Part shown: one piece after another, positions 228 through 56,875 of the stretch | How the letters are laid out: each line of letters starts with the position of its first letter | How positions within the stretch are numbered: the stretch's first letter is position 1 | Assembly (NCBI GenBank): GCA_002010305.1 | Contig: MTND01000018.1 | Coordinates: 69,795-133,794, forward strand | Reading direction: 5' to 3' | Origin: Archaeoglobi archaeon JdFR-42 | GTDB taxonomy: Archaea > Halobacteriota > Archaeoglobi > Archaeoglobales > JdFR-42 | DNA length: 64,000 nt | Program-made: the position numbers and the translations under genes | The notes under the pieces: generated by a model | What the model was told of the DNA's origin: nothing | The model's input: only the letters and a program-made list of their open reading frames with translations | Database searches by the model: none

Positions 228-1787
228 ATGGCTCTAAAAACCAATGAAATCATACTCCCATCCAAAACTCGATCTTTGTGCCCGGAGTGCAAAAGCATCA
301 TAGAAGCCAACATATACGAAGAAAATGGAAGGGTAATGATCGATAAAGAATGCAAGGTTCATGGATATTTTAAAGACGTTTACTGGGGTGACGTGGGACT
401 TTTCAAGAAGGCTAGCCGTTTTCAGGCAAAAGGTAAGAAGTTATTGAACCCAAACATAGAGAAAGAGAATCCTGTCTGTCCCACTGATTGCGGGTTGTGC
501 AGAACTCATCTCAACCATTCAGCATTAACAAACATAGTGTTGACCAACAGATGCGATTTGTCATGCTGGTACTGCTTTTTTTACGCAAAAAAAGCTGGTT
601 ATATTTACGAGCCAACCATAGAGCAAATTAGACAGATGGTTAGACTCATTAAAAGCGAAAAGCCTGTCCCTGGAAATGCCGTACAGCTAACTGGAGGGGA
701 GCCAACACTCAGAGAAGATCTTATAGACATCATAAAAATGATAAAGGAGGAGGGAATTGACCATATTCAGCTCAATACAAATGGAATTAGGATTTCTCAA
801 GATCTCGAATTTACAAAAAAAGTTAGAGAGGCTGGGGTTAACACTCTATATCTGAGTTTTGATGGCACCACTTCCGAGACCAATAAGAAAAACCACTGGG
901 AGATACCGGGAGTGCTGGAAAACTGCAGAAAAGCCAATCTGGGAATTGTCCTTGTTCCCACGATTCTCAATACCGTTAATGATCATGAAGCGGGTAACAT
1001 TATCCGTTTTGGATTTGAAAACATCGATATAATTCGATCAGTAAATTTCCAGCCGGTCTCTCTGGTTGGGAGAATGACCAAGAAAGAGAGGGAGAAATTC
1101 AGGATCACCATCCCTGATCTGATAAAAAGAATCGAGGACCAGATGGATGGGGAAATAGGAAGGGAGGATTTTTACCCGGTACCGTGTGTAAGCCCCATAA
1201 CCCAGTTTGTAGAGGCGGTGACTGGTAGACCGCAGTATGAACTCTCTATACACTTCGCATGTGGCATGGCCACCTATGTATTCAAAGAAGGAGACAGACT
1301 GATACCCATAACTCGGTTCGTTGATGTTGAAGGACTTTTTGAATTTCTTAGAGAAGCTTCAGAGGAGATTAAAAAGGGACGAAGCAGGTTCATTGTAGGG
1401 GCAAAACTTTTACTGAATCTAAGAAAATTCATAGACAAAGACAAACAACCGGGAGAATTCAACTTCGCGAAAATAATCTACGATGTGCTTATCAAACATG
1501 ACTACCACTCTCTCGGACAGTTCCATCTCAAAAGCTTATTCATCGGAATGATGCATTTCCAGGATCTCTACAACTATGACATTAACAGGGTGATGAGATG
1601 CGATATACACTATGCCACCCCTGACGGAAGAATCATACCTTTCTGTGCTTTTAATGTGATACCCGAATGGTACCGTGATAAAATCCAGACAGAATATGGA
1701 ATCCCAATTGAAGAATGGGAAAAACAGACTGGTAGGAGTTTGAAAGATGACTTTTACATCAGGAAGAAGGTAACTGCCCGTATGTAG
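228..1787 (+). CDS. Radical SAM enzyme with N-terminal Zn-ribbon, MJ0619-like family (as I recall, the family containing archaeal tetraether lipid synthase Tes/GDGT-MAS)
   Basis: CPEC...C..H Zn-ribbon at the N-terminus. CDLSCWYC is a CxxxCxxC radical SAM triad. GGEPTL motif present. 519 aa. GGAGGG at 218-223 lies just upstream of the ATG. Confidence 0.7.
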   Translation: MALKTNEIILPSKTRSLCPECKSIIEANIYEENGRVMIDKECKVHGYFKDVYWGDVGLFKKASRFQAKGKKLLNPNIEKENPVCPTDCGLCRTHLNHSALTNIVLTNRCDLSCWYCFFYAKKAGYIYEPTIEQIRQMVRLIKSEKPVPGNAVQLTGGEPTLREDLIDIIKMIKEEGIDHIQLNTNGIRISQDLEFTKKVREAGVNTLYLSFDGTTSETNKKNHWEIPGVLENCRKANLGIVLVPTILNTVNDHEAGNIIRFGFENIDIIRSVNFQPVSLVGRMTKKEREKFRITIPDLIKRIEDQMDGEIGREDFYPVPCVSPITQFVEAVTGRPQYELSIHFACGMATYVFKEGDRLIPITRFVDVEGLFEFLREASEEIKKGRSRFIVGAKLLLNLRKFIDKDKQPGEFNFAKIIYDVLIKHDYHSLGQFHLKSLFIGMMHFQDLYNYDINRVMRCDIHYATPDGRIIPFCAFNVIPEWYRDKIQTEYGIPIEEWEKQTGRSLKDDFYIRKKVTARM

Positions 1788-3930: not shown

Positions 3931-4113
3931 CTACTCCATCTCATTCTGGATTTGGGTCTTCGGAGGGATCTGCCATGCTTGACCTTCCGGTGAAACGATG
4001 ATGCCGCATCCACAATCTTCACATCGATAATACTTGTTGTCCCCCTTATCCGTCCCCAGTAATGTCAACCTTCTATGAGGGCATTCAACCTTCATTACAA
4101 GTAATGATGGCAT
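3931..4113 (-). CDS. Small Zn-ribbon protein (hypothetical)
   Basis: 60 aa with CPH...CEDCGC cysteine/histidine pairs. Fits the gap between flanking genes. Confidence 0.4.
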   Translation of the reverse strand: MPSLLVMKVECPHRRLTLLGTDKGDNKYYRCEDCGCGIIVSPEGQAWQIPPKTQIQNEME

Positions 4114-5024: not shown

Positions 5025-5897
5025 ATGAATACAAAAGGAGAACTCAGTTTAGATGTAGTAATTGGACTCTCAATATTCATGATCGCCTTCATCTTTGTGG
5101 CCCAGTACATCCCATCTATTTTTGTAGTGGAGAATGAGGAACTGAGTTTGTATCCTCTTGCCTACCGGACCTCAGCTATTCTTGCCGAAGATAGTGGGTT
5201 TTGGAACAATGGGAGTGCCAATGGCACAGATTGGGAAAATCACCTCAATGTGGATTTAAGGATAGGATTATCTGGAGGAGGAGCGAACGTTTTGAGTGTA
5301 GAAAAGATAGCAGCCTTTAATGATTTCTACAACAATTATGGATATGAGTCTGTAAGAAGAGCCCTAGGTCTTGAAACACCTACTAGACAGTACGACTATA
5401 ATATCTCACTCCAGCTATTTGCCAGCAATAGCGGGCAGGTGAATTACGCCAGAAACCAATCCGGACCTTTGCTTCTCGTAGGAAATCCAGTCCCAGATAT
5501 AGGAAAAGTAGCAAGATATGAGAGAATAGTGGCCTACGATAACCTGACTGCAATAGCTTCCATTTCCAGCAATATTGGAACCCCAAGCACCACTGTTAAC
5601 ACTTTTAATGTGACTCCCCCCATTGGTGCTTTTATTATTGTGGTGGAAGATAGAAACACTAACCAGACAGCTAGTGAACCCTGGATGAATGTCAAGGTAA
5701 ACGGAAATCTGGTAATAAACGTCTCAGGAAACGCTACCATCACCACTTTCGATATTACGGATTATGTAAACGGATATTCTGAAACAGTGTATGTGTGGAT
5801 ACAGAGCCATAACATCCAAGGATATGTTGTTGTTACGGACGGAGGGGAGTATGTGGGAGGGAGACTTGGTGCCAAGCTCGTCGTTATCCTGTGGTAA
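5025..5897 (+). CDS. Surface protein with archaeal type IV pilin-like (class III) signal peptide
   Basis: The N-terminus MNTKG/ELSLDVVIGLSIFMIAFIFVAQ has a short charged leader, a Gly, then a hydrophobic helix. Many N-x-S/T sequons. First gene of an overlapping six-gene operon. Confidence 0.6.
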   Translation: MNTKGELSLDVVIGLSIFMIAFIFVAQYIPSIFVVENEELSLYPLAYRTSAILAEDSGFWNNGSANGTDWENHLNVDLRIGLSGGGANVLSVEKIAAFNDFYNNYGYESVRRALGLETPTRQYDYNISLQLFASNSGQVNYARNQSGPLLLVGNPVPDIGKVARYERIVAYDNLTAIASISSNIGTPSTTVNTFNVTPPIGAFIIVVEDRNTNQTASEPWMNVKVNGNLVINVSGNATITTFDITDYVNGYSETVYVWIQSHNIQGYVVVTDGGEYVGGRLGAKLVVILW

Positions 5898-6432
5898 CAG
5901 CAGATCAAAGGATAGAGGCCAAGCTTTCACTCTTGAAGGTGTGATAGCAGGAGTTCTTATACTGGTCGTAGCATATTTCCTGTTTCAAAGCACACTGATT
6001 GTATCACCCCTTTCAGGGGATATAGTGGATGTCCAGATCAGGCAATATGGACTGGATGCCCTCAACATCTTGAGTAACCCTCAGTCAGATGCCAATGATA
6101 CTCTTGAAAACTCTATTGCCAAACTCAACAGTTCAGTATATCCCACAGAACTACTTAACAGCTTGGATACCATTCTCCCAGATAACCTGGAATACAATCT
6201 AGAAATAGCCTATTTCAATATTACCACTAATCAGACTGGTATCTATCCAATCACAAATAAAAGCAATCCTCCAGACACAGTTACGGCTACTAAAATTATT
6301 GTTTTGAGAAATGGTCAGCTTGTCTCAGATTCTCCATTTAAAGTACCTGTTAATTACACCGATATTGAGAGTGTCAGCAATAGTGAGTTTCCAGTGGTTC
6401 TGGAGGTGAGACTGATACTATGGCGCATATGA
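5851..6432 (+). CDS. Pilin-like protein with class III signal peptide
   Basis: SKDRG/QAFTLEGVIAGVLILVVAYFLF motif. The track ORF starts at 5791 inside the previous gene. ATG 5851, TTG 5866 and GTG 5869 are all candidate starts, so the start is uncertain. Confidence 0.5.
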   Translation: MWEGDLVPSSSLSCGNSRSKDRGQAFTLEGVIAGVLILVVAYFLFQSTLIVSPLSGDIVDVQIRQYGLDALNILSNPQSDANDTLENSIAKLNSSVYPTELLNSLDTILPDNLEYNLEIAYFNITTNQTGIYPITNKSNPPDTVTATKIIVLRNGQLVSDSPFKVPVNYTDIESVSNSEFPVVLEVRLILWRI

Positions 6433-6854
6433 AATCTATGAGTACCAAGAAATTCACAGATGATGAAAATGGGCAAATCCTGATAATTATGGCTCTGCTA
6501 ATATCAGTCCTACTTGCTGGTCTATCCCTGTTATATACCCAGAATTTGCTGGCAGGGACCGAATCTGCATTAACTCAGCTTAATTTTCCAAAGAACGAGA
6601 TACGAGATTTAAACAGGATTGTGGAGGAGCAACTGGTATACTATGCAATTAATAACCCTGAGAATTTTCTGACATATGTCAGAGAACTGGATAAGCAGAT
6701 AACAATGATGTATGCCCTCCATGGCGCTTATGCAGATATAGATGTTTACGATGTTAAAACAAACATCAACGGAGATATCACCTCTTTTTCGGTGAAAATC
6801 ATTTTCAGTAACGCGGTGGTAGATTATGAACACACCAGACAGATTGTCATCTGA
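6420..6854 (+). CDS. Pilin-like protein with class III signal peptide
   Basis: DDENG/QILIIMALLISVLLAGLSLLY N-terminus. Overlaps the upstream gene by 13 nt and the downstream gene by 29 nt. Confidence 0.55.
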   Translation: MAHMKSMSTKKFTDDENGQILIIMALLISVLLAGLSLLYTQNLLAGTESALTQLNFPKNEIRDLNRIVEEQLVYYAINNPENFLTYVRELDKQITMMYALHGAYADIDVYDVKTNINGDITSFSVKIIFSNAVVDYEHTRQIVI

Positions 6855-9204
6855 TGAGAGGGGTGTCTCAATAATTCTTGAATACATCCTGATAATCGGA
6901 ATACTGGCAGTTTTCATGGGGGTGATAGTACTTCAGTTAAACGATATTTTTATAGAAACTCCCACAAGGGTAGCAATGAAAAACCAGTTTCAGGACATAG
7001 GTAATCAGATTGCGACCAAGCTGACCGATATATCCTTGATCGCACCCGATAACGGGTACATCAGAGCCAAGGTGTACATGCCATACGCCATAGGAGACTA
7101 CGATTATCGGGCTGAATTCACTTACATTGGGGGGGACTACGTCCTGAAAATTGAATCAGATAAGCTCAATAAGATTGAATACGTCCCTCTGAATAACTTG
7201 GCTCTTCAGATTATCCCTATGGGTTATACAATCAGCCTGAAAAAAGATCACGAACTCATATACACCAGTTCAACCCATCTCAAACCCACGGCTGTAGCTT
7301 TGGCTTATCCCACCAAGGTAGAAGTTGGCACCAACGTTACGTTCGACATGACTTATTCCACTGGAGAAGGAGACATTTGGTATCAGTGGGATTTTGGAGA
7401 TGGAAACTCAGCAAATGGACAGTATGACTCTGACAATCCTTCCAACTCTCTGGAAGATCATTCATATAATGTGGCAGGAAACTACACTGCAACACTGACA
7501 GTCTGGGATGCTCTTGGATATTCCGATACAGACTCGATCAATATAACAGTCCTACCATCTACTCCTGATCCCTTCCTTCATGCGGATAAATTTGTAACCC
7601 CTGATACAACTGAGCCGAACAACCCTGTTAGAATAACCCTGTATATCAGAGGTGGAGGGATAGTCTCAACAGCCCGAAATATCAGCGTGATACATGTCAC
7701 AGATGTTTCCGGTAGCATGGATCCAGATTATTATGGAGATAACGGGTATACACTATACACATCCAACAGTGGAACCGCAATTCCATCCAAATGGGAATCT
7801 AACATAACAGTAGACGGCAGTTTTTCAAGTCTTACAGTTATGGCATACTCAAACAATGGCAAAGATGTCGATCTATGGGTTAAATCTCCAGACGGCGATT
7901 TTGCAAGGGCCCAGTATCTTATAACCAACGGAGAGTTGTATTATGTGCAGAATCCTGTCGAGGGGGAATGGACGATCGCTGTGGTAGCGGATTATCCAAC
8001 AGACAGCGATACAGTCAATGTGGATGTAGAGAAGAACGGCTATTTCTGGGGATGGTGGTATATCTCAGGAACCCTTGTATCATCTTCAAGCTTCGTTCTT
8101 AATGGAAATGCCACCACGTTCAATCTCCAAATTCCATCTGTAGAGAATCTGAAAATTGAGGCCACTCCGGTGAACGGTAGCAAGGTACTTCACCTGTGGG
8201 TAGAGAAAGGCGCAACTCGTTATGGGCCTTACTCAGGCGCTTACGAAGAATCCAATGGTGGAGGGAATTATACAGCTTACGTTGTGGCTGATTTCCCCTA
8301 TGGAACTCAGGACTTTTACCTCTACACATCTATAGCCAAAATCGACGCTGCAAAGATCACAGCTAAAACCTTTAACGGATTTTTGAGGGGGAGCGATCAG
8401 GTTGGTGTAGTCTCGTTTGGTGGAACGGGAGGTAGTGGCAGGACGCCTAGAATAACTTTAGACCAGCCTCTGACCAATGATACCAATCAGGCAAATTCAA
8501 GTATAGATGGCCTGTGGGCTTATGGTGGAACCCCACTTGGAGGAGGTATAAAAACTGCCAGGGAAGAACTTGTTGCCAACACAACAGCAGGAAACATTCC
8601 CGTGATGATTATTCTGTCAGATGGAAACCCCACTATTACCTCCAGTGGGCAACCTTCTGAAACTTTGGCCATTCAGGAAGCTCTTGACGAAGCAAATGTC
8701 ACCAAACAGACAACTATCAACAATGAATCCATACTCATATACACCATTGGATTTGGACCAGATGCTAACGCAACATTATTGAAAGAGATAGCAAGTTCAC
8801 CCAATAATTACTATTTTGCTGCTACTTCTGAAGAGTTACAAAGCATATATGAACAGATTGCTAGAGAGTTAAGAGAGAAGGCTGCTCAGAATGTTACTGT
8901 AACAGATGTGCTTCCACCCGATGTAATACTTTCTGAGACACCTTCTGGAGCAAATGTCACCTACAGCAACGGGACGACTATAATTAGATGGGAAATACCA
9001 TCTATCCGGATTAACGAAACATGGACTGTGAGTTTTCTTGTCACTCCAACTTCAGCATCAGTAACAGAAACAAATGTCCCAAATGCGTCCAATGTAACTT
9101 TTCTACCTTTTCCTTTTGTAGGAGTGAACTTCACCACAATATACTTACCCCCTGGAGAGATTAACGTGACAAGCCTAGGAGCCAAAAAGGTTGAGCTACA
9201 ATGA
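6826..9204 (+). CDS. Large pilin-like adhesin candidate: class III signal peptide, PKD domain, and a vWA domain carrying an inserted beta-sandwich pair
   Basis: DERG/VSIILEYILIIGILAVFMGVIVL N-terminus. PKD signature WDFGDGNSANG...HSYNVAGNYTATLTVWD. vWA MIDAS DVSGSM at 7702-7719. The rest of the vWA fold follows later (KIDAAKITAKTF...VGVVSFGG...GGTPLGGGI...ILSDGNPT...IYTIGFG). The C-terminus is dense in N-x-S/T sequons. Confidence 0.7.
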   Translation: MNTPDRLSSDERGVSIILEYILIIGILAVFMGVIVLQLNDIFIETPTRVAMKNQFQDIGNQIATKLTDISLIAPDNGYIRAKVYMPYAIGDYDYRAEFTYIGGDYVLKIESDKLNKIEYVPLNNLALQIIPMGYTISLKKDHELIYTSSTHLKPTAVALAYPTKVEVGTNVTFDMTYSTGEGDIWYQWDFGDGNSANGQYDSDNPSNSLEDHSYNVAGNYTATLTVWDALGYSDTDSINITVLPSTPDPFLHADKFVTPDTTEPNNPVRITLYIRGGGIVSTARNISVIHVTDVSGSMDPDYYGDNGYTLYTSNSGTAIPSKWESNITVDGSFSSLTVMAYSNNGKDVDLWVKSPDGDFARAQYLITNGELYYVQNPVEGEWTIAVVADYPTDSDTVNVDVEKNGYFWGWWYISGTLVSSSSFVLNGNATTFNLQIPSVENLKIEATPVNGSKVLHLWVEKGATRYGPYSGAYEESNGGGNYTAYVVADFPYGTQDFYLYTSIAKIDAAKITAKTFNGFLRGSDQVGVVSFGGTGGSGRTPRITLDQPLTNDTNQANSSIDGLWAYGGTPLGGGIKTAREELVANTTAGNIPVMIILSDGNPTITSSGQPSETLAIQEALDEANVTKQTTINNESILIYTIGFGPDANATLLKEIASSPNNYYFAATSEELQSIYEQIARELREKAAQNVTVTDVLPPDVILSETPSGANVTYSNGTTIIRWEIPSIRINETWTVSFLVTPTSASVTETNVPNASNVTFLPFPFVGVNFTTIYLPPGEINVTSLGAKKVELQ

Positions 9205-22052: not shown

Positions 22053-23039
22053 TCAGTCTATTCTCACATCCTCTACTGAAATGCCCTCTTCCACCACTTC
22101 TCCAACCACTCTTCCATCTATAATCTTTTTAATATCCCTAACTTCGTTCTCAGATAAAATTATGGCAAAACCCATTCCCATGTTAAAGGTACGGTACATC
22201 TCTTTTATGTCCACATTTCCCTCATCCATCAGGAAATTAAAGATTTCATGGGGCTTCAAAGGATCATAAATGTTATAACCAACATTTTTCAGACGCTTAA
22301 GTTTGAGCAATCCACTTCCCGTGATATGAGCCAATCCATGTACCTCGACTTTTTTTATTACCTCAAGGATCTCCAGGTAGATTCTTGTTGGTTTCAACAG
22401 CTCATCTCCAAGAGTGTGATTCCCAAACGGCTCAGAATAATCAAGTCCTGCCTTATCAACAATCTTTCGTGCTAATGTCAGACCATTGCTGTGTATCCCA
22501 CTACTCGGCACTCCATAAATCACATCCCCTATCTCTATCTTCTCTCCAGTGATAATCTTTTCTTTATTCACAACTCCTACAGCGGTCCCTGCTAGATCAA
22601 AACCTCGGATAATCTCTGGCAAAGTAGCAGTTTCTCCACCCACTAAGGTGACATTTGCCAGTCTACACCCCTCTTCCAGTCCCACCGCTATCTGAGCAAG
22701 AATTTCTTTATCCGGATCTTCAATAGCAATATAATCTACAAAAGCCACAGGTTCTGCCCCGATGGCAAATAAGTCATTAACATTCATCGCTACACAATCT
22801 ATCCCTACTGTGGTCCAGTTTCTCATAGCAGATGCAACAAGAACTTTCGAGCCGACACCATCTGTAGTTAACGCTAAAGCAAAAGAGCCCATATCGATTA
22901 CTCCTGCATAATGTCCTGTAAGAATTGGTTTTCCGATCCCTGTGCGTGAAAATCTAATTTTATCTTTCAAAGCCCGTATAGCCTGTTCTTCTTTCCTAAT
23001 ATCGACTCCAGCTTTTGCATAATCCATTTTTTCTGTCAT
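22053..23039 (-). CDS. purM: Phosphoribosylformylglycinamidine cyclo-ligase (AIR synthetase)
   Basis: [10 protein letters not shown]-terminus, TTDGVGSK, and GGETATLPE motifs. Confidence 0.9.
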
Positions 23040-23437: not shown

Positions 23438-24169
23438 TTGCATCCTGATTTTCAACTTGATGTGACAAAGAATCAAACTCTCAGACAAAGGACCCTAAAA
23501 CACATTCAAACAGCTATAGATAAGGGCCTTACCGGAATGTCAGTAACCTGTCAATATTATCCATGCCATCATGAAGGACAGGATTGTACCTGGTGTTTCT
23601 GTCCATTTTATCCCTGTCTGAACTTTGAACTTGGTGGAAACTACACGGAATCGCGCAAAAATGGCAGACTTATCTGGAACTGTTCTGAGTGTACATGGGT
23701 TCATGATCCAGCTATTGCCGAAAGAATTCTAAAACTTCTGAAAAAAGTGACTGACATCCATCTAAAGGACTGGATTTTTTTCTCTGAACTCCATTTTAAC
23801 CTGTTCTATGGCCATCCACCTTCAACAGGAGAACTCAAAATAGAAAAAAAGATTGAGTCTGACTCCTTAATGAGGATCTACAATCTCGGAAAAAGAGTCA
23901 TTGAAACTGGACAATTTGTAAAAATATATCATAAGATACAGTTCAAAACCCCTCCATTGATACTGCTCAACAACTGGAATATCAGTGGAGAATATCTCAC
24001 AAGTAATAGAAGGCCCAAATCTTCGTGGTACAGACTGAACAGTAATATTTACCAATACTGTAGAGGGAGGGCCTTAGTGATCTTTACCCCTTTTAAGGTT
24101 GTGGGAGCTGATGACTCATTTGCGACATCCCTTGACCCTATATCATATATCATGAAAAAATCAGGTTAA
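23438..24169 (+). CDS. Cysteine-rich small domain protein with an uncharacterised C-terminal half
   Basis: CQYYPCHHEGQDCTWCFCPFYPC...WNCSECTWVH matches the archaeal cysteine-rich small domain pattern (YYPCH..GQ.C.FC.CP.YPC). TTG start at 23438 per the track. ATG at 23537 (MSVTCQYYPCH) is an equally plausible start. Confidence 0.6.
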   Translation: MHPDFQLDVTKNQTLRQRTLKHIQTAIDKGLTGMSVTCQYYPCHHEGQDCTWCFCPFYPCLNFELGGNYTESRKNGRLIWNCSECTWVHDPAIAERILKLLKKVTDIHLKDWIFFSELHFNLFYGHPPSTGELKIEKKIESDSLMRIYNLGKRVIETGQFVKIYHKIQFKTPPLILLNNWNISGEYLTSNRRPKSSWYRLNSNIYQYCRGRALVIFTPFKVVGADDSFATSLDPISYIMKKSG

Positions 24170-24302
24170 TATCAAAAGTGTTTTTAATAAAACAGCGCCA
24201 TAAGTCTTGTTCTTCTCATTTCGGCCAGATTCGCTACATATAGTAATACTTAAATAATTAGAAAATCAACTCAAATTCACGCCTTATATCGGAGGGAGTG
24301 AT

Positions 24303-24611
24303 TTGACAGAAGCGTTAAAAGAGATTAACGAAAAAATTAAAGAACTGGCAGACAGTGAGCTATTTCAACTGATGTCAAGGTTTCAGCAATGGTACAGTAG
24401 CAATCCGGCCTTAGGAGGTTACTCCCCTCTGGACCTGAAATTACTCCAGGAACAATTTCCTAAGCTTCTATCGGAAGAAAATCTCAAGAAGCTTGTTGAA
24501 CAGGGATTGTTTATCGTGGAATTCGAGGAGTCCTCCCGTCCAAAACTGAGAATAACAGACAAGGGATGGCAGCTGAAGACGAAAATTGAGGCGCTATCAG
24601 CTGAAATTTAA
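24303..24611 (+). CDS. Hypothetical small protein, possibly winged-helix at the C-terminus
   Basis: TTG start with GGAGGG 6 nt upstream. The C-terminus KLVEQGLFIVEFEESSRPKLRITDKGWQL looks wHTH-like. First gene of the cassette. Confidence 0.5.
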   Translation: MTEALKEINEKIKELADSELFQLMSRFQQWYSSNPALGGYSPLDLKLLQEQFPKLLSEENLKKLVEQGLFIVEFEESSRPKLRITDKGWQLKTKIEALSAEI

Positions 24612-24626
24612 GCTGGAGGTGTTGAT

Positions 24627-25280
24627 TTGAAGACAGAAAAGATAGTTATAAGATATAAAAACGTACTGGATCCACTCGGTGAGACCACTGCAGAACCCAT
24701 TGAACTCAACGACGGCATTGAGACATTGGATGGCAAGGTCATCGGTCTCCTGGACAACGCCAAGCCCAATGCAGATGAGACAGTGAATGCCTTTAAGGAG
24801 TTCCTCTCTCAGCGATACGATGTCAAAGAGTGGATCTACAGGAAGAAGCCACTTGCAGGCAATGTCGCTCCGGAAGAAGTCCTCAGTGAGCTTGCAGAAA
24901 AATGTGACGCTGTGATAACAGCCCATTGTGATTGAGGATCATGCACGGCCTGGACTATCCGAGATGCGCTAATTCTCGAGAGCAAGGGTGTTCCTGTGGC
25001 GACCTTCTGTTCGACCGCGTTTGCTCCCCTCGGGGCTATAGTTGCTGAGGCTCTCGGGCAACCAGATTTGCCCATAAGTGCCCTCAAACATCCCCTTGCG
25101 GGTCTAACCCCCGAGGATATCAGAGAGAGAGTAAGACCGGTTATCGATGACGCCATCGGGATGCTTACCCTTTCAAAAGAAGAGAGAATTAAGCGCTACT
25201 CGGGTAGGCGCTGGGTAGAAGCGCTCCAGGCCGTGTCTATTGAGGCAAAAGTCGGAGAGGAAGAAGAGGAAGAGAAATAA
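24627..25280 (+). CDS. Candidate UGSC-family selenoprotein (single 217-codon frame containing in-frame TGA at 24933-24935)
   Basis: Track ORFs 24627..24935 and 24996..25280 share one frame. No other stop lies between them. Read-through gives ...AVITAHCD-U-GSCTAWTIRDALILESKGVPVATFCSTAF... TTG start with GGAGG 7 nt upstream. Confidence 0.55.
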
Positions 25281-25293
25281 ATGGAGGCATATC

Positions 25294-26517
25294 ATGGCAG
25301 ATGTAAAGTTAACATCAAGGGAATGGAAAGTGGTCGAATCCAAAGTGGCTGAACTTCCTGTAGACGAAGAAGGAAGGCCGATTCTCGAGCTAGAGCCGCC
25401 AATTGACGACATATACAAATTTTTCTACACTAACAGAAGGACTGATGGACTACCTGTTGTCCCACCTACAAAAGAGAGAGTTCTCAAGATGATGAAGTAC
25501 ATAGACAGAGAACCCGACGAAATTCTGGGGTACTTCCCACCGAGGAACTCTGTTGTAACTCCAGAAAAGATTGCCATTAATGCAGTAATGGCTGGCTGCA
25601 TCCCAGGACATTTTCCTGTAGTAATGCATGCAGTGATGGGATTGATACACAAAGCTTACAATCAGCTTGCCACCACTCTGAATATAGAGGGTATCATCAC
25701 TACAACTCACCCTGTGCACCCTCTAACCATCGTTAACGGACCAGTAATTCAAGAATTGACTTTCAACGGTGGTGTCAACTGTTTTGGGCCTGGATGGAGA
25801 ACCAACGCCACAGTCGGCAGGGCCATCTCTCTGTGTATGCTTAACTTGGGAGGAGGGATGGCTGGAATTGTAGATCACGCTACCCATGGGTCTCCCACTA
25901 AATACTCTTTTGTGGTTGCCGAGAATGAAGAAGAGAGCCCGTGGGACCCATTGCACGTGAGACGTGGATACGATAGAGAAGACTCCACCGTAACACTGAT
26001 GGGATTAGAAGGACCCCATAACGTCCAGGACCACCGAAGTGAGACTGGAGAAGACCTATTGCTTTCATATGCAAAAACTGTGTGTGTGGCGGGAATGAAC
26101 CCATCTACTCTTGCATCAGAGCGCTGGGGTAATATACTCATTGTCGTTAGTCCTGAGTATGCAAAAATTATTCACAGGGATGGGTATGACATAGATGACA
26201 TCAGAATGTTCATCTGGGAATATGGTCGACAGGACCAGCAGTTCTTCGAGCAGATAGGATACGAGCTACCTAGAGGGGGGCTGATGCCAGAATGGCCCAA
26301 ATGGGTATGGAACAGGTTTGATGGTGAAGTCCCACCCACAGCGAAGCCTGAGTACATAGAAGTAATTGTTGCTGGAGGGCCAGGTAGACATGGTCTTGTT
26401 ATGCCCAGTTTTGGATGGACTCATGACCTGACTGTTCCATTAACACTGGCAGATGGAACACCAATACGTTCGGTGATGGATTTCAGAAAAGCAAGAAAAG
26501 CCAGAAACCTTGAGTGA
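25294..26517 (+). CDS. Hypothetical conserved-looking protein (408 aa), function unknown
   Basis: ATG 25294 with GGAGG 6 nt upstream (the track ORF starts at 25240 inside the preceding gene). Motifs TDGLPVVPPT and INAVMAGC. I cannot assign a family. Confidence 0.6.
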   Translation: MADVKLTSREWKVVESKVAELPVDEEGRPILELEPPIDDIYKFFYTNRRTDGLPVVPPTKERVLKMMKYIDREPDEILGYFPPRNSVVTPEKIAINAVMAGCIPGHFPVVMHAVMGLIHKAYNQLATTLNIEGIITTTHPVHPLTIVNGPVIQELTFNGGVNCFGPGWRTNATVGRAISLCMLNLGGGMAGIVDHATHGSPTKYSFVVAENEEESPWDPLHVRRGYDREDSTVTLMGLEGPHNVQDHRSETGEDLLLSYAKTVCVAGMNPSTLASERWGNILIVVSPEYAKIIHRDGYDIDDIRMFIWEYGRQDQQFFEQIGYELPRGGLMPEWPKWVWNRFDGEVPPTAKPEYIEVIVAGGPGRHGLVMPSFGWTHDLTVPLTLADGTPIRSVMDFRKARKARNLE

Positions 26518-26530
26518 GAGGTGCTGAAAA

Positions 26531-26695
26531 ATGGCCGATTTACATGAACTGGTAGCGAATGTGAAGGACGAGGATACACGGAAAGCTCTGGAAGAGCTCG
26601 TTAAACAGTTTGAAGAGTTCAAAGAAGAAGTTAGCGTGAGATTCTTCGGTCTTGCCAAGTGGGAGAAGCTCCGCCCTGGAGCACCCAAAATGTAA
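26531..26695 (+). CDS. Unannotated 54-codon ORF (MADLHELVANVKDEDTRKALEELVKQFEEFKEEVSVRFFGLAKWEKLRPGAPKM)
   Basis: Below the ORF-track size cutoff. ATG at 26531 with GAGGTG 7 nt upstream. Follows the 25294 gene by 13 nt and shares its composition. An AT-rich spacer begins right after its TAA. Confidence 0.45.
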   Translation: MADLHELVANVKDEDTRKALEELVKQFEEFKEEVSVRFFGLAKWEKLRPGAPKM

Positions 26696-27078
26696 TTTCT
26701 TTTTTCTTCTTTTTTATAACTAAAAAACTTAAACTCATATTGACCATCAAAAAAGATTTCATATACTCCACATACACCCATAAATTTACCTCAATGAGAT
26801 TTTGTTAGCTGTTCTTAATTTTATATGAGCTCATTATAAATTGTATTGTTAGCTCTACAAGAAACGTGATTTAAAAAACTCTAGCTGACTGATTCTAATG
26901 TCAGATGGCTTTGTTTTCACCTGATGACATTTACAACGCTTTATTGGAGAAAGAATTCTATGAATATCTCACTGTAATCAGGGCAAATAGGTGAGAGAAT
27001 TCCAAATATTCTGTAAGAATTACAATGCAAATTTTAATATCGATATGGCTTTTAATCATAATAACAAATAAACATTGT

Positions 27079-27891
27079 ATGAGAATCCTTGGAGTTGATG
27101 TAGGAGGGACCAAAATCGAGATTACAGGATACGATGAGAAGTTTTACCATATAAAACGAATTCCTTCAAATGAAGACAATCTGAAAAAACTGAACAGCAT
27201 TCTTATCAATGAAGCAGAAGGATTTGGAGCAGAAGCAATAGGAATCGGTATCGCTGGATGGCTGGAGGACAGAAGAGTAGTCAAAGCACCCAACCTGCGG
27301 TACAAGGACTTTCAATTTAACCTTCCTGTTCCTTTCATTCTGGAAAATGATGCCAACTGCTTTGCCTACGGGGTTCAAAAATTAAGATTTCCAGAAATAC
27401 TGTATATGGCTGGCATTACTGTGGGTACAGGCATTGGCATGGGTTTGATTCTGAATGGAAAACTCTTTAGAGGGAGAGGAAAAGCGGGAGAGATTGGACA
27501 TAGTGTTATTCACTCAATCGCAAGAATACCTGATATGTTATGTGTATGCGGTGGTAGAAATCATCTCGAATGTTATTTTTCAGGATGGTCTCTTGAAAAA
27601 AAGTACGACGATTTCAAAAGGGTGATCAAAGAAAACTCAGAACAGATATTCAGAGAAAAAGGATATGAATTGTTTATTCAAGAGGTAACCCATCTAGTGA
27701 CAATTCTTGACCTTGAACTCGTTGCAATAGGAGGTGGCATTGGAAACAAGTTATCGCAAGAGATTGTAAAAAGAGATGTCAATACCATGCTACCTCCTCC
27801 ATTCACATGTCGGGTAGAAATCATTAAGGAAGACGGAATGGTTGCCAAGGGGGCAGCATTGCTTGCCGAAGACATGCTAAATAAGGAGTAA
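27079..27891 (+). CDS. ROK-family sugar kinase (glucokinase-like)
   Basis: MRILGVDVGGTKIE ATP-binding N-terminus (start chosen at 27079). GEIGH motif. CVCGGRNHLEC zinc motif. Confidence 0.8.
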   Translation: MRILGVDVGGTKIEITGYDEKFYHIKRIPSNEDNLKKLNSILINEAEGFGAEAIGIGIAGWLEDRRVVKAPNLRYKDFQFNLPVPFILENDANCFAYGVQKLRFPEILYMAGITVGTGIGMGLILNGKLFRGRGKAGEIGHSVIHSIARIPDMLCVCGGRNHLECYFSGWSLEKKYDDFKRVIKENSEQIFREKGYELFIQEVTHLVTILDLELVAIGGGIGNKLSQEIVKRDVNTMLPPPFTCRVEIIKEDGMVAKGAALLAEDMLNKE

Positions 27892-46257: not shown

Positions 46258-46660
46258 CTTCCACTATAATTATGCCCCTCATATAATGGTGTATGGGGCT
46301 GCATACCACGGTACATTCAAACATATACACTCCTTCTTCCTTAGGAGTGAACTCGACCACCTTTTTTTCCCCTGGTTCTATCGGCCCAAGATCTATCCCA
46401 AGAGCTTCGCTTTTAAATCCATGAACCACATCCATCCCCTCTACCACCAGTTTCACTGTTTCTCCTTTCTTCACCCGTATCACTCCTGGATCAAAACCAC
46501 CCGATTCCTGTATGTAAGCCCTTATCAGGATTGTATTGGGCTCTCTTTTTTCTGGCATGACATAGTTATCCAGCAACGGAAGGGATACTGTTCCAATTAC
46601 TGCAATAGTAAGCACCAATGCTACAATTTCCCAGAAGATTCCTCTATTCATATATATCAC
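46250..46660 (-). CDS. Membrane-anchored cupredoxin with a CuA-type ligand motif
   Basis: TM anchor followed by VVHGF...x35...C-TVV-C-SPI-H-HY-M. This is H...C-x3-C-x3-H-x2-M, the spacing of the binuclear CuA site in CoxII/NosZ. Confidence 0.65.
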   Translation of the reverse strand: MIYMNRGIFWEIVALVLTIAVIGTVSLPLLDNYVMPEKREPNTILIRAYIQESGGFDPGVIRVKKGETVKLVVEGMDVVHGFKSEALGIDLGPIEPGEKKVVEFTPKEEGVYMFECTVVCSPIHHYMRGIIIVEGE

Positions 46661-48663
46661 CCCGCTACCACCCAGACAAATGCAATGGCTACCAAGATAT
46701 GTAGCAATGCCATGACCGATGTAGCCCTAAAGGCTTTGTCATGTCCTCCAAGCATCTTGCGAGCTATGTTATAAGTAGAATTAATGGCAAGAGCCATCCC
46801 TATTATGGACAGAGATGCTAGCACATATGGCAAAGACTGAGGAATAAACGGATCCCATTTGAACTTAAATCCAAGAAGATTCCAGCCCCATCCGAAAGGA
46901 TCTGAAAAGGCTGTTATCGGATATGCCCAGAATACCAAGAGGATTGCAACGGCGAATGCCGCCCATATGAATACTATGTAAGGGATCAGTGCATAGCTGA
47001 AAGCCAGAAATATATGTTTCGTTGGTTGATCCGTTTTTGCAACTTTTTTTGAGAACCACGAGAAGGTGTAAAATACGGCTGGATAAGCTACAAGTGCTAC
47101 TCCAGCCACCATAATAGCCCACTTAAACCAATTTACTACCCCTTCTACTCCAGGAGTGAGCAACCCAATGCTGGCAAGATTAGCTCCGAAATTAACGCCC
47201 ATATTCCCCCAGTCTCTGATCCAGGAATAAGGACCAAAGAATACCAGAATATAGAAAACTCCCAGAGTAAATCTTATAAAGCCCATCCACGCCTCATCAA
47301 ACTTATTTTTCGCCTTTGCAGCCATGTGTGCTAAATCTTTTCCAATCATCCGTATTTTAACAGTCATGTTATCAAGGGGACAGGATTTCAAACATTCATA
47401 GCACTGCCCACAGTAAGTATTCTCATCGTGGCCTCCTGGATAAAGCTTCCATGGACAACCATATCCTTCTGGACTACCCCGAATGCACTCTTTTGCCTTA
47501 TGTTTATCACAGATACTTTTATCTCTTGCTCGGACACTGTATATGGAAGCATTCGAATCATGTCCTATGTAAGCTCCCGCCGGACATACACTCCTGCAGA
47601 AATTCCGTGGAGGATGCGTTATATACAATATGGTGCCTACAGCAATCAGAACTACAAACAGTAATCCTGATACCACCGGCCGGGTAACCAGCCACGGAAT
47701 TATGAGAGACATGGTGAGAAACAGAAGAGCACCAAGCCACATATTATTCAGACGCTTGGGCCATTTAAGTTTGAGGGCAAACCATTTTCTCACATTATGT
47801 ACTCCACACAGCCTTCTTCTGGCAATCCATTCACCTATTGCAGGAAGGGGGCACACTGTGCACCATGTCCTTCCTGCCAGTAGGATCATAAACTCAACCA
47901 GAGCAAACCATAAAATCCACACCACAGCAATAGAGAAATTCTTGTTCCCAACTGGATTACCAACAAACCCTGCCACGATAACCACTGCAAAAATCAGCAG
48001 GCTAGGCCAGAGTACTGCAAAATGAAATCCTCTCCACTGGAGAATCCGTTTTAAAATCGGACCTATACCTCTCACTCTGAGAAGATCAATTTCTTTTTCA
48101 AGGGAAATCCCAAGCATTTTGTTCTCTGGTCCTCTCCTAACATAAACTAGTGTGAGCATGCCAACGAAGAGAGTTCCAACCAAGTAGGAATAGTATGTAA
48201 AATTGGGGTTTACCTTTATATCACCCACCATAAAAGGATGGAGTGGGCCACAGGTCACAGAACACCTGATTTTAAATTTACCAGGCTTATCGAAAGTTAT
48301 TGGTCCTATCTCAATGATTTTACCCGGTTCGATGACGATCTTCTGATCTACTGGAGATGGAGTATATCCATCAATAAAAAAGCCGTGAGTTACATCTTCA
48401 GAGATTATCCTGAAAATCACCCTATCTCCTTTGTTTACCTCTATTATTTCAGGATCGAATCCAAATTGATATGCTTTAATATATATTACTCTAATATCGT
48501 CAGGATGATTATGGGGGTCATTGAGCCATTCATCCTCAATCGAGCTTTCATCAGCATTTATGACCGGAAGGAAAAATACACTCAAACTCAACATCAATAA
48601 CACAAAGAGGCATATTTTTTTAATTCCACTCATTTGTTTTCTGATTATATTTACTCTGCTCAT
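46657..48663 (-). CDS. Fusion protein: signal peptide + CuA-motif cupredoxin domain + NapH/NosR/CcoG-like polyferredoxin membrane domain
   Basis: Cupredoxin THGF...C-SVT-C-GPL-H-PF-M. Membrane part has RTWCTVCP and RNFCRSVCP (CxxCP pairs typical of NapH/NosR/CcoG), CGQCYECLKSCP ferredoxin motif and CDKHKAKEC...GCPW. More than 10 hydrophobic helices. Start taken at ATG 48663, which forms an ATGA overlap with the upstream stop. Alternative start is MSGIKK at 48633. Confidence 0.7.
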   Translation of the reverse strand: MSRVNIIRKQMSGIKKICLFVLLMLSLSVFFLPVINADESSIEDEWLNDPHNHPDDIRVIYIKAYQFGFDPEIIEVNKGDRVIFRIISEDVTHGFFIDGYTPSPVDQKIVIEPGKIIEIGPITFDKPGKFKIRCSVTCGPLHPFMVGDIKVNPNFTYYSYLVGTLFVGMLTLVYVRRGPENKMLGISLEKEIDLLRVRGIGPILKRILQWRGFHFAVLWPSLLIFAVVIVAGFVGNPVGNKNFSIAVVWILWFALVEFMILLAGRTWCTVCPLPAIGEWIARRRLCGVHNVRKWFALKLKWPKRLNNMWLGALLFLTMSLIIPWLVTRPVVSGLLFVVLIAVGTILYITHPPRNFCRSVCPAGAYIGHDSNASIYSVRARDKSICDKHKAKECIRGSPEGYGCPWKLYPGGHDENTYCGQCYECLKSCPLDNMTVKIRMIGKDLAHMAAKAKNKFDEAWMGFIRFTLGVFYILVFFGPYSWIRDWGNMGVNFGANLASIGLLTPGVEGVVNWFKWAIMVAGVALVAYPAVFYTFSWFSKKVAKTDQPTKHIFLAFSYALIPYIVFIWAAFAVAILLVFWAYPITAFSDPFGWGWNLLGFKFKWDPFIPQSLPYVLASLSIIGMALAINSTYNIARKMLGGHDKAFRATSVMALLHILVAIAFVWVVAG

Positions 48664-49121
48664 TTTTCTTCCTCCATCCGCCTGAATTTGACGCTTTTGA
48701 ATTCCTCCCACAAATACTCTGAAAATTGATACCATATCTCCGCCAGAGTTCCATCACCATTTCTGACATCCTTTCCAGAGGACGATTTTTCGAGCTTTTC
48801 CCAGACAAAAGAGGCCAGTTCTTTTCCAACCTCATGCAATTCATTGGCTTCTGTTACATCTGAAGTAAACCGCCTTCCAGTTCCTTTAAGAACAGAATAG
48901 AGAAACACTGAGCCACTGTAAGCTGTTTCACTCCGTTTATCGAGATCTGATTCCCATGCGGAATACACATATTCAAACACATCGTGAACAGGTCTTGATA
49001 CCTTATCTTTCGAAAGAGTATTTCTTGCACCAAATACGAGCTTGTTCCAATATCTATCCCTAAGCACATCCCGAACTTTTTGAAAGAGTTCCTTCTTTTC
49101 AGCCTCATGTCCGTTTTTCAT
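48660..49121 (-). CDS. Hypothetical soluble protein (153 aa), first gene of the copper/Fe-S operon
   Basis: No TM helix or signal peptide. Its stop overlaps the next gene's start (ATGA). Family not recognised. Confidence 0.5.
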   Translation of the reverse strand: MKNGHEAEKKELFQKVRDVLRDRYWNKLVFGARNTLSKDKVSRPVHDVFEYVYSAWESDLDKRSETAYSGSVFLYSVLKGTGRRFTSDVTEANELHEVGKELASFVWEKLEKSSSGKDVRNGDGTLAEIWYQFSEYLWEEFKSVKFRRMEEEK

Positions 49122-56824: not shown

Positions 56825-56875
56825 CTTGAGGGGATGATTACCTTGATATATGTAAACTTTTTCATTCCCTATGCT

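What the first reader, a model, noticed from the sequence alone, without database searches (positions are those of the whole stretch)
24627..25280. In-frame TGA falling exactly in a U-G-S-C motif: candidate selenoprotein gene in an archaeal chromosome
**Direct observation.** ORF-track entries 24627..24935 and 24996..25280 are in the same frame. The only interruption is TGA at 24933-24935, and the 60 nt after it are open in that frame. My codon-by-codon read-through gives one 217-residue product: ...AEKCDAVITAHCD-U-GSCTAWTIRDALILESKGVPVATFCSTAF... The TGA therefore sits in a U-G-S-C tetrapeptide with a Cys two residues upstream, which looks like a redox motif.

**Recollection, to be verified.** I recall a RefSeq/NCBIfam product name 'UGSC family (seleno)protein', found mainly in anaerobic bacteria.

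**Context.**
- TGA is used as an ordinary stop elsewhere in the window (for example 6852-6854 and 48660-48662), so this is not a globally recoded genome.
- The surrounding genome is clearly archaeal.
- To my knowledge, selenocysteine use in archaea is established only for Methanococcales, Methanopyrus and some Asgard lineages.

**Limitation.** I could not identify a convincing SECIS by eye. There is only a weak 5-bp hairpin (CGAGA-N9-TCTCG, 24960-24978), and nothing GC-rich in the 3' spacer 26696-27024.
Basis: partly seen in the sequence, partly recalled or inferred. Interest (0 to 1): 0.85.

Follow-up and report, generated by a model that had tools for sequence, protein, structure and literature searches.

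The report
Selenocysteine gene in an Archaeoglobaceae-like archaeon
The in-frame TGA is almost certainly a selenocysteine codon in a UGSC-family redox protein of an Archaeoglobaceae-like archaeon, which puts a "bacterial" selenoprotein family into an archaeal lineage missing from the usual list of selenium users, although this genome's own selenocysteine machinery could not be checked.

Summary
TGA at 24933-24935 interrupts one 217-codon frame (24627-25280). The read-through product is a full-length UGSC-family (seleno)protein: NCBIfam NF041046 scores 135 bits (cutoff 125) and Pfam PF24696 scores 174.5 bits. Cys-form homologs place Cys exactly at the TGA.

The TGA is not an error or a pseudogene. 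It recurs in independent assemblies and in 8 distinct archaeal orthologs. Purifying selection is equally strong on both sides (omega about 0.01-0.03) and begins at the first codon after the TGA. TGA is the commonest ordinary stop in the window (29 of 58 ORFs), so this is site-specific recoding.

The gene sits in a conserved four-gene operon with an unnamed 407-aa partner protein that is fused to UGSC in other organisms. In the closest TACK/Bathyarchaeia relatives the same operon lies beside tRNA-Sec, SepSecS, a PSTK-aSelB fusion and a Sec-containing SelD.

The window is euryarchaeal, and its closest MAG is labelled Archaeoglobaceae. Mukai et al. 2022 reported this atypical Sec system in Bathyarchaeota and one Archaeoglobus species.

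Two points remain open. I found no Sec machinery in the 64 kb window, and I could not search the rest of the genome. No known SECIS type was found; the only cross-lineage RNA-level constraint is a hairpin directly 3' of the UGA.

The parts
24236..24257 (+). Promoter-like BRE/TATA element (ATATAGTAAT.CTTAAATAA) upstream of the operon
   Evidence: Conserved among Archaeoglobaceae-type loci (window, L003, L095). TACK-type loci carry a different TATA box (GTTATAAAAGG). No structured element is shared in the leader. Inferred from sequence only.
24303..24611 (+). First operon gene: a conserved 102-aa protein of unknown function, with a weak winged-helix hit
   Evidence: 51-58% identical to the equivalent ORF in L003, L095, L098, L099, L004 and L087, always directly upstream of UGSC. 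Pfam F-93_WHD scores only 16.8 bits, below its cutoff.
24627..25280 (+). UGSC-family selenoprotein gene (217 codons, TTG start preceded by a GGAGGTG ribosome-binding site), read through the TGA
   Evidence: NF041046 scores 135 bits against a cutoff of 125; PF24696 scores 174.5 bits over residues 13-181. Omega is about 0.009 upstream and 0.025 downstream of the TGA versus L003. The AF2 model of a Cys-form homolog is a single flavodoxin-like domain that the TGA would cut in half.
24933..24935 (+). In-frame TGA, inferred selenocysteine codon (residue 103, motif HCD-U-GSC)
   Evidence: TGA in all 8 distinct archaeal orthologs and in about 60 bacterial loci. It is TGT/TGC (Cys) in four Methanobacteriaceae loci and one Dehalococcoidia locus. 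Full-length Cys forms read GD-C-GSCT.
24932..24979 (+). Candidate recoding hairpin. The basal stem U-UGAGGAU (24932-24939) pairs with AUUCUCGA (24972-24979), so the UGA lies inside the 5' arm. The apical part is variable.
   Evidence: This region has the strongest synonymous-site suppression in the four-gene operon: 10 of 20 informative columns invariant against a 13% background. The structure pairs in 93.8% of cells across 8 sequences, against 35-46% when the partners are slid, but shows no double compensatory change. It is significantly stable in L003 (z -3.4) but not in the window (z +0.8) or L004 (z +0.9). It lies at codon positions homologous to the bacterial UGSC bSECIS. Its function is inferred, not shown.
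25294..26517 (+). Partner gene: a 407-aa protein of an unnamed family, the functional partner of UGSC
   Evidence: Adjacent to UGSC on the same strand in nearly all of 80 loci. Fused to UGSC in P0083, with 42% identity and E 1e-89. No Pfam, NCBIfam or PDB match for 21 diverse members. The AF2 model failed at pLDDT 40.6.
26531..26695 (+). Fourth operon gene: a conserved 54-aa protein (C-terminal motif AKWEKLRPGA)
   Evidence: Present directly after the partner gene in window, L003, L095, L097, L099, L004, L083 and L087.
26696..26715 (+). Oligo-T tract, likely the archaeal transcription terminator that ends the operon
   Evidence: It is the only feature conserved 3' of the 54-aa ORF in window, L003 and L004. 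No conserved 3'UTR structure follows.

Best explanation
The TGA at 24933-24935 encodes selenocysteine in a functional UGSC-family protein of a euryarchaeon affiliated with Archaeoglobaceae.

The protein is a single flavodoxin-like alpha/beta domain. The U-G-S-C motif sits at the end of strand 3 and the start of a helix, where a selenol/thiol (U-x-x-C) redox pair would form. It most likely acts as a small redox-active subunit or carrier for the 407-aa partner protein encoded 13 nt downstream. The two genes are adjacent across bacteria and archaea and are fused in some organisms. The substrate is unknown.

The four-gene operon (102-aa ORF, UGSC, partner, 54-aa ORF) was exchanged horizontally between TACK/Bathyarchaeia-type archaea and this Archaeoglobaceae-type lineage. 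In the TACK-type genomes it lies inside a gene cluster with tRNA-Sec, SepSecS, a PSTK-aSelB fusion and a Sec-containing SelD. Decoding is therefore expected to use that atypical archaeal Sec system.

Shown:
- gene integrity and family membership;
- conservation of the TGA and selection across it;
- linkage of the operon to Sec machinery in sister lineages.

Inferred:
- that this genome encodes the same machinery;
- that the inserted residue is Sec;
- the redox role;
- that the hairpin containing the UGA helps recoding.
For: - Family membership across the TGA.
- Most of 627 homologs are 93-103 aa and end exactly at the U position. The minority that are full length carry Cys there.
- Across 80 genomic loci the codon is TGA in bacteria and in the two closest archaeal relatives, and TGT/TGC in Methanobacteriaceae.
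- TGA is kept in 8 distinct archaeal sequences.
- Window versus L003, 100 codons downstream of the TGA: 42.5 synonymous against 5.5 nonsynonymous differences. Conservation starts at the first codon after the TGA.
- The sequence is identical in independent assemblies.
- L004 holds tRNA-Sec (ARAGORN; Rfam RF01852 at 67 bits), SepSecS at 472 bits, a PSTK-aSelB fusion, and SelD at 299 bits with its own in-frame TGA, all within 7 kb of its TGA-UGSC operon. L083, L087 and L088 have the same cluster.
- Partner linkage and fusion.
- Fold of the UGSC domain.
Against: - No tRNA-Sec, SepSecS, PSTK, aSelB or SelD lies in the 64 kb window or in about 100 kb of Archaeoglobaceae-type loci. The nearby AIRS-fold gene is PurM, not SelD.
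- I could not link any Sec gene to the window's metagenome, JGI 3300037583.
- No Rfam SECIS model hits. No conserved 3'UTR or 5'-leader structure exists.
- The candidate hairpin is not more stable than shuffled sequence in the window itself, z +0.84, and has no compensatory covariation.
- No direct evidence of selenium incorporation.
- The partner's function and the substrate are unknown.
Confidence: 0.8

Rival explanations
1. The UGA is translated, but not as selenocysteine. In a genome without Sec machinery it would be read as Cys, by a tRNA-Cys-like UGA suppressor or a mischarged tRNA, or as Trp by near-cognate read-through. This would give a functional CGSC- or WGSC-type protein.
For: No Sec machinery was found in the DNA of this lineage available to me. 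Cys forms of the family are functional in other archaea. The literature describes crosstalk between Cys and Sec at Sec codons (PMC8762117, section 3.4.2).
Against: One nucleotide change (TGA to TGY) would give Cys directly. It has not happened in any of 8 diverged sequences, even though synonymous sites are near saturation. Sister lineages keep the operon inside a Sec gene cluster. Sec machinery has been reported in an Archaeoglobus species (PMC8762117). TGA is the main ordinary stop in the window, so general suppression would be costly.
Confidence: 0.1
2. It is a split gene. The TGA is a true stop, and the C-terminal half is made separately from the GTG at 24996. The two polypeptides would then assemble.
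For: Gene callers in all public sources call two ORFs of 102 aa and 94 aa. An in-frame GTG exists at 24996.
Against: The 20 codons between the TGA and the GTG (GSCTAWTIRDALILESKGVP) are conserved as protein, with synonymous changes, in all orthologs. They carry the family's defining G-S-C motif. There is no start codon or ribosome-binding site directly after the TGA. The TGA falls in the middle of one alpha/beta domain, between strand 3 and helix 3. Cys forms are single chains.
Confidence: 0.04
3. It is a pseudogene, a recent nonsense mutation, or a sequencing or assembly error.
For: Nothing beyond the bare presence of a stop codon.
Against: The sequence is identical in separate assemblies from Logan SRR3723048, JGI 3300037583 and NCBI. 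TGA is conserved in 8 distinct sequences from two archaeal phyla. Omega downstream of the TGA is about 0.025.
Confidence: 0.01

Closest known systems
Bacterial UGSC-containing selenoproteins (NCBIfam NF041046, Pfam PF24696; first described from ocean metagenomes, Zhang and Gladyshev 2008, PMC2398784)
   Same: Same family by curated HMM cutoffs, with the same U-G-S-C motif at the same position. The same partner gene is adjacent or fused, which is probably the 'Unknown_1' fusion domain of the 2008 paper. A hairpin follows the UGA at homologous codon positions.
   Different: The host is an archaeon. The bacterial SECIS hallmark is not kept: a 7-bp stem UCGUGGA/UCCACGA with a G-first GUU triloop starting 13 nt after the UGA. 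Only the basal stem is shared, and the apical part has diverged. The archaeal genes form their own tight clade. The 2026 review lists UGSC among selenoprotein families with bacterial examples and not among the 11 archaeal families (PMC13188914).
Atypical archaeal Sec-encoding system with a PSTK-aSelB fusion in Bathyarchaeota and one Archaeoglobus species (Mukai et al. 2022, PMC8762117)
   Same: The closest TGA-bearing relatives of this operon (L004, L083, L087) sit beside exactly this system: tRNA-Sec, SepSecS, a 724-725-aa PSTK-aSelB fusion and SelD. The lineage labels match (Bathyarchaeia and Archaeoglobaceae).
   Different: In the text I could read, that paper describes the machinery, not the selenoproteins or a SECIS. 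In the window's lineage the operon is not next to the machinery, and whether this genome has the machinery is untested.
Classical archaeal selenoproteins of Methanococcales, Methanopyrus and Asgard archaea (SelD, HdrA, VhuD/MvhD, FrhA, FdhA and others)
   Same: Site-specific UGA recoding in an archaeon whose ordinary stop codons include UGA. In related TACK-type genomes the classical families SelD, HdrA and MvhD also carry in-frame TGA.
   Different: It is a different protein family, otherwise known from bacteria. No 3'UTR SECIS of the GAA_A type or the Asgard kink-turn type was found. The gene is followed after 13 nt by two more co-transcribed genes and then a terminator, with no conserved 3'UTR.
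Cys-form UGSC homologs in Methanobacteriaceae
   Same: Archaeal hosts, the same UGSC-plus-partner gene pair, and the same motif with C in place of U.
   Different: The codon is TGT/TGC instead of TGA. Partner identity to the window is 42-50%. They form a separate clade and show no significant local suppression of synonymous change after the Cys codon.

Membership tests
UGSC family (seleno)protein (NF041046 / PF24696) | Full-length match to the family model above the curated cutoff | tested here: met
   NF041046 scores 135 bits against a cutoff of 125 (profile 1-146 of 147). PF24696 scores 174.5 bits against 25 (profile 2-171 of 172). Both match in one stretch across the TGA.
UGSC family (seleno)protein (NF041046 / PF24696) | U/C-G-S-C motif at the conserved position, with Cys in non-Sec homologs | tested here: met
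   The window reads HCD-U-GSCTAW. Cys forms read GD-C-GSCT(A/S)W. The codon is TGA or TGY at this position in about 70 loci.
UGSC family (seleno)protein (NF041046 / PF24696) | Bacterial-type SECIS hairpin directly after the UGA, as in bacterial members | tested here: inconclusive
   A hairpin lies at the homologous position and shares the basal stem UUGAG/CUCGA. It lacks the G-first apical triloop and is not stable in the window itself.
Archaeal selenoprotein gene (UGA decoded by the archaeal Sec machinery) | tRNA-Sec, PSTK, SepSecS, aSelB and SelD in the same genome | not testable with these tools
   None lies in the 64 kb window or in other Archaeoglobaceae-type loci, and the rest of the genome could not be searched. 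All five are present next to the orthologous operon in L004, L083 and L087.
Archaeal selenoprotein gene (UGA decoded by the archaeal Sec machinery) | UGA conserved among orthologs, with purifying selection continuing past it | tested here: met
   8 of 8 distinct sequences keep TGA. Omega is about 0.025 downstream and 0.009 upstream.
Archaeal selenoprotein gene (UGA decoded by the archaeal Sec machinery) | SECIS element in the 3'UTR (methanogen GAA_A type or Asgard kink-turn type) | tested here: not met
   No Rfam SECIS hit at E up to 10 over 24000-27200, and none at E up to 1 in L004, L085 or L087. The 3' region conserves only an oligo-T tract.
Archaeal selenoprotein gene (UGA decoded by the archaeal Sec machinery) | Selenium actually incorporated at the UGA position | not testable with these tools
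   Needs 75Se labelling or mass spectrometry.
Thioredoxin-fold thiol oxidoreductases (the fold guessed for UGSC in 2008) | Thioredoxin fold with the redox motif at the N-terminus of helix 1 | tested here: not met
   The AF2 model of Cys-form P0008 (pLDDT 88.5, pTM 0.81) is a five-stranded beta-alpha-beta fold. Foldseek against the PDB finds only flavodoxin-like and CheY-like folds at TM 0.33-0.46. The motif does sit at a strand-to-helix junction.

The most novel reading that the evidence does not exclude
Archaea that use the PSTK-aSelB type of Sec system, including this lineage, may not use a 3'UTR SECIS. They may instead use a recoding element inside the coding sequence, directly 3' of the UGA, which is the bacterial arrangement. 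For UGSC, this element would be a diverged descendant of the bacterial SECIS that came with the gene by horizontal transfer. That would be a third architecture for archaeal Sec insertion.
Probability: 0.25. Interest if true: 0.8.

Novelty: new member of a known kind. Interest (0 to 1): 0.6.

Why it matters
Recent reviews limit archaeal selenocysteine use to Methanococcales, Methanopyrales and some Asgard clades, and count 11 archaeal selenoprotein families (PMC13188914). This locus matters for four reasons.

1. It adds UGSC, a family otherwise known from bacteria, as an archaeal selenoprotein.
2. It places a selenoprotein gene under strong selection in an Archaeoglobaceae-type euryarchaeon. 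That independently supports the little-cited report of Sec machinery in Archaeoglobi and Bathyarchaeota.
3. It shows the selenoprotein operon moving between archaeal phyla, in one case as part of a Sec "toolkit plus client" gene cluster.
4. It exposes an open mechanistic question: where the recoding signal lies. The operon has no conserved 3'UTR, and the only RNA-level constraint sits right after the UGA.

Public gene calls split the gene into two hypothetical proteins, so such genes are systematically missed.

Tried and rejected
- **SelD lead.** The AIRS-fold gene 1.6 kb upstream (22053-23039) looked like SelD. It is PurM: TIGR00878 scores 386 bits and selD only 37 bits.
- **Word-indexed protein search.** The full read-through product found nothing. 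I searched with the N-terminal half instead.
- **Linking the window's genome to Sec machinery.**
  - A PSTK-aSelB on a 292,081-bp contig (P0270) looked like the window's 292,100-bp contig, but it is another organism.
  - SepSecS candidates P0284, P0287 and P0285 come from other samples.
  - The window's JGI source is metagenome 3300037583.
- **Metagenome scan with the UGSC protein.** It returned only 5 distant loci.
- **SECIS searches.**
  - Rfam at permissive thresholds found nothing.
  - The 3' region, the UGSC-partner spacer, which exists only in TACK-type loci, and the 5' leader hold no shared structure.
- **Partner structure.** The permitted shallow alignment gave pLDDT 40.6, so I ran no fold search on it.
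- **PDB searches.** Profile and single-sequence searches of both families found nothing.
- **Neighbour-gene clustering across 83 loci.** It over-merged because of spurious overlapping ORFs and was abandoned.
- **Other TGA-terminated ORFs in the window.** Their downstream extensions look non-coding.

Full report
**1. The observation**

The two ORFs 24627..24935 and 24996..25280 share a frame, and the only stop between them is TGA at 24933-24935. The read-through gives 217 residues with the motif ...ITAHCD-U-GSCTAW.... The start is a TTG preceded by GGAGGTG. With U replaced by C, the product matches NCBIfam NF041046, "UGSC family (seleno)protein", at 135 bits against a curated cutoff of 125. It matches Pfam PF24696 at 174.5 bits (E 2.9e-51). 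Each match is a single stretch that runs across the TGA and covers essentially the whole model. TGA is the commonest ordinary stop in the window, ending 29 of 58 long ORFs. None of the other post-TGA extensions looks like protein. This is therefore a single site-specific event, not a reassigned codon.

**2. Is the TGA real, and is it translated?**

- *Independent assemblies.* A Logan assembly of SRR3723048 (L001) is 100% identical over the locus and includes the TGA. The same proteins also occur on a 255-kb contig of JGI metagenome 3300037583 and on a 292-kb NCBI contig.
- *Homolog lengths.* An exhaustive HMMER search with the N-terminal 102 residues found 627 homologs. The great majority are 93-103 aa long and end exactly where the query ends. 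That is the signature of Sec genes truncated by gene callers.
- *Cys forms.* The few full-length homologs (178-215 aa) read GD-C-GSCT(A/S)W, so a Cys aligns with the TGA.
- *Orthologs.* Using the downstream gene as bait, I fetched 80 genomic loci. Later look-ups added six more archaeal loci. All eight distinct archaeal orthologs keep TGA.
- *Selection.* Between the window and L003, synonymous sites are near saturation. Yet the 100 codons after the TGA show 42.5 synonymous against 5.5 nonsynonymous differences (omega about 0.025). The 90 codons before it give omega about 0.009.
- *No internal restart.* Protein-level conservation begins at the first codon after the TGA, 20 codons before the GTG that gene callers use.
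- *One domain.* A confident AF2 model of a Cys-form homolog (pLDDT 88.5, pTM 0.81) shows a single five-stranded alpha/beta domain. The U/C residue lies between strand 3 and helix 3, so a stop there would cut one domain in half.

Pseudogene, assembly error and split gene are all effectively excluded.

**3. Is it selenocysteine?**

The codon at this position follows the host's biology. It is TGA in about 60 bacterial loci, TGT/TGC in four Methanobacteriaceae MAGs (an order not known to use Sec), and TGA in the window's closest relatives.

The decisive context comes from L004, a MAG labelled Bathyarchaeia whose partner protein is 74% identical to the window's. Within 7 kb of its TGA-containing UGSC operon lie:
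- tRNA-Sec (ARAGORN, anticodon TCA; Rfam RF01852, 67 bits against a gathering score of 47);
- SepSecS (TIGR03531, 472 bits);
- a 725-aa fusion of PSTK (residues 7-245) and aSelB (residues 271-563, plus the aSelB_III domain);
- SelD (NF010705, 299 bits against a cutoff of 291), which has its own in-frame TGA in the active-site motif GVHG-U-SCKV.

The same cluster, with an added TusA gene, occurs in L083, L087 and L088 from other samples. CdvA and Vps4 nearby mark these as TACK archaea.

This is the atypical system that Mukai et al. [quoted passage not shown] The 2026 review of prokaryotic selenoproteomes omits these lineages. It lists UGSC only with a bacterial example and not among the 11 archaeal families (PMC13188914).

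**4. Whose genome is the window?**

The window's EF-2 is closest to the Methanoperedens protein (about 1120 bits), then to a Pyrococcus one (990), and far from a crenarchaeal one (770). Its str-operon gene order and its Tes, RLI and RqcH genes are archaeal. The best genomic match is a MAG labelled Archaeoglobaceae (L003), with 89% partner identity and shared synteny: PurM, a zf-like gene, then the operon. A further relative, L095, has multihaem cytochromes nearby.

The window is therefore a euryarchaeon of the Archaeoglobaceae neighbourhood. That is a different phylum from L004 and L087, yet the operon is 74% identical between them. In a rough NJ tree without support values, the TGA-bearing archaeal genes form one tight clade, apart from the Cys-form Methanobacteriaceae. 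I read this as horizontal transfer of the operon between archaeal phyla.

**5. What could not be shown**

The 64 kb window, and about 100 kb of Archaeoglobaceae-type loci in total, contain no tRNA-Sec, SepSecS, PSTK-aSelB or SelD. The AIRS-fold gene upstream is PurM.

That this genome encodes the machinery is therefore an inference. It rests on three things:
- TGA is retained in six diverged sequences of this lineage, although a single-base change would give Cys.
- The operon is linked to Sec machinery in sister lineages.
- The literature reports the machinery in one Archaeoglobus species.

**6. The recoding signal**

No Rfam SECIS model hits the locus or the related loci, even at permissive thresholds. 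UGSC is followed after 13 nt by the partner gene, then after another 13 nt by a 54-aa ORF, then by an oligo-T tract. Nothing beyond that tract is conserved. The 5' leaders share only promoter-like elements. The roughly 90-nt UGSC-partner spacer exists only in the TACK-type loci.

By contrast, among 443 informative codon columns of the four-gene operon, the strongest suppression of synonymous change starts at the codon after the U. There, 10 of 20 columns are invariant, against a 13% background. Within UGSC, the first 20 codons after the U differ from the rest of the gene with Fisher p of 0.005-0.017.

The eight sequences share a hairpin. Its basal stem, U-UGAGGAU pairing with AUYCUCGA (window 24932-24939 with 24972-24979), contains the UGA itself. 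The evidence for and against it is as follows:
- 93.8% of cells pair, against 35-46% when the partners are slid, but there are no double compensatory changes.
- The hairpin is significantly stable in L003 (-37 kcal/mol, z -3.4). It is not in the window (z +0.8) or in L004 (z +0.9).
- Bacterial UGSC genes carry a textbook bacterial SECIS at the homologous codons: UCGUGGA-GUU-UCCACGA starting 13 nt after the UGA, often stacked on the same UUGAG/CUCGA basal stem. The archaeal apical part has lost the G-first loop.
- In another PSTK-aSelB genome (L085), an HdrA-MvhD fusion has two in-frame TGAs at the classical sites, FPTLDCSI-U and FMCNW-U. A strong hairpin starts 6 nt after the first (z -3.2). 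A weaker, non-significant one follows the second.
- SelD shows no significant structure after its UGA.
- The Cys-form Methanobacteriaceae genes show no local synonymous suppression (p = 0.28), but that test has little power.

I conclude that an intragenic element directly after the UGA is the best candidate, and that it is unproven.

**7. Function**

UGSC is flavodoxin-like, not thioredoxin-like as guessed in 2008. Its U-x-x-C motif sits at a strand-to-helix junction, which suits a selenol/thiol redox pair.

The 407-aa partner is adjacent to UGSC on the same strand in nearly every locus and is fused to it in P0083 (42% identity, E 1e-89). This is probably the "UGSC/Unknown_1" fusion of Zhang and Gladyshev 2008 (PMC2398784). 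The partner has more than 570 relatives in GTDB genomes but no Pfam, NCBIfam or PDB relative. It has a nearly invariant Cys in AINAVMAGC. DUF6282 joins the pair in some bacteria and lies next to the operon in the TACK loci.

I propose that UGSC is the redox-active selenoprotein subunit or carrier for the partner enzyme. The substrate is unknown, and this step is inference only.

**8. Verdict**

It is a new archaeal member of a known selenoprotein family, in a lineage absent from the standard list of Sec users, and the machinery it presumably depends on has already been reported once. Public gene calls split it into two "hypothetical proteins". The most novel reading still open is that these archaea place their recoding signal inside the coding sequence, as bacteria do.

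Noticed in passing
window 25294-26517: The 407-aa partner belongs to a widespread family: more than 570 relatives in GTDB genomes, from Alphaproteobacteria, Burkholderiales, Chloroflexi, Methanobacteriaceae and others. It has no Pfam, NCBIfam or PDB match in any of 21 diverse members. It has strongly conserved motifs (TDGLPVVPPT, AINAVMAGC, GPGWRxNATxGRA, AENExxSPW).
   Followed up: partly
window 26531-26695 and 24303-24611: Two small ORFs of 54 aa and 102 aa flank the UGSC-partner pair. Both are conserved in the Archaeoglobaceae-type and the TACK-type loci; the 54-aa one ends in AKWEKLRPGA. Neither has a family assignment.
   Followed up: partly
L004 6932-6934; L083, L087, L088 equivalents: The SelD genes of the TACK-type Sec clusters have their own in-frame TGA in the active-site motif (GVHG-U-SCKV). 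Gene callers truncate them at the N-terminus. In L083 and L087 a TusA sulfur-carrier gene lies between SelD and PSTK-aSelB.
   Followed up: partly
L085 3458-5965: An HdrA-MvhD (FlpD) fusion with two in-frame TGAs at the classical Sec sites (FPTLDCSI-U-IEGPRM at 4089-4091; FMCNW-U-GYAGAD at 5498-5500). Gene callers record it as three separate genes. A 13-bp hairpin starts 6 nt after the first UGA (z -3.2). tRNA-Sec lies at 6234-6319.
   Followed up: partly
L008 9074-9910; L045 1389-2192; L004 7947-8789: A DUF6282 protein sits between UGSC and the partner gene in two bacterial loci, and next to the operon in the TACK-type archaeal loci. It may be a third member of the system.
   Followed up: no
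L025, L028, L030, L062: In several bacterial loci a SelB-like gene lies within a few kb of the UGSC-partner pair. The selenoprotein-next-to-machinery arrangement is therefore not confined to archaea.
   Followed up: no
window 228-1787: The tetraether lipid synthase Tes (NF045702, 748 bits) also scores 336 bits on the related radical SAM (seleno)protein TrsS model, below that model's cutoff of 490. It has no in-frame TGA here.
   Followed up: no
window 26823-26896: A weak C/D-box-sRNA-like Rfam hit (snoU43, 22.6 bits, E 2.7) lies in the AT-rich spacer after the operon terminator. It is not conserved in L003.
   Followed up: partly
window 56834-59886: The archaeal ribosome-rescue factor RqcH (729 bits) is directly followed, with overlapping stop and start, by a 345-aa eRF1-fold protein of Pelota-like size. 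This looks like a ribosome quality-control gene pair.
   Followed up: no
window 46657-48735 and 6826-9204: A 692-aa protein has 4Fe-4S motifs and weak cupredoxin/COX2-like hits. A 792-aa protein carries PKD, VWA and DUF11 domains. Neither has a clear functional assignment.
   Followed up: no
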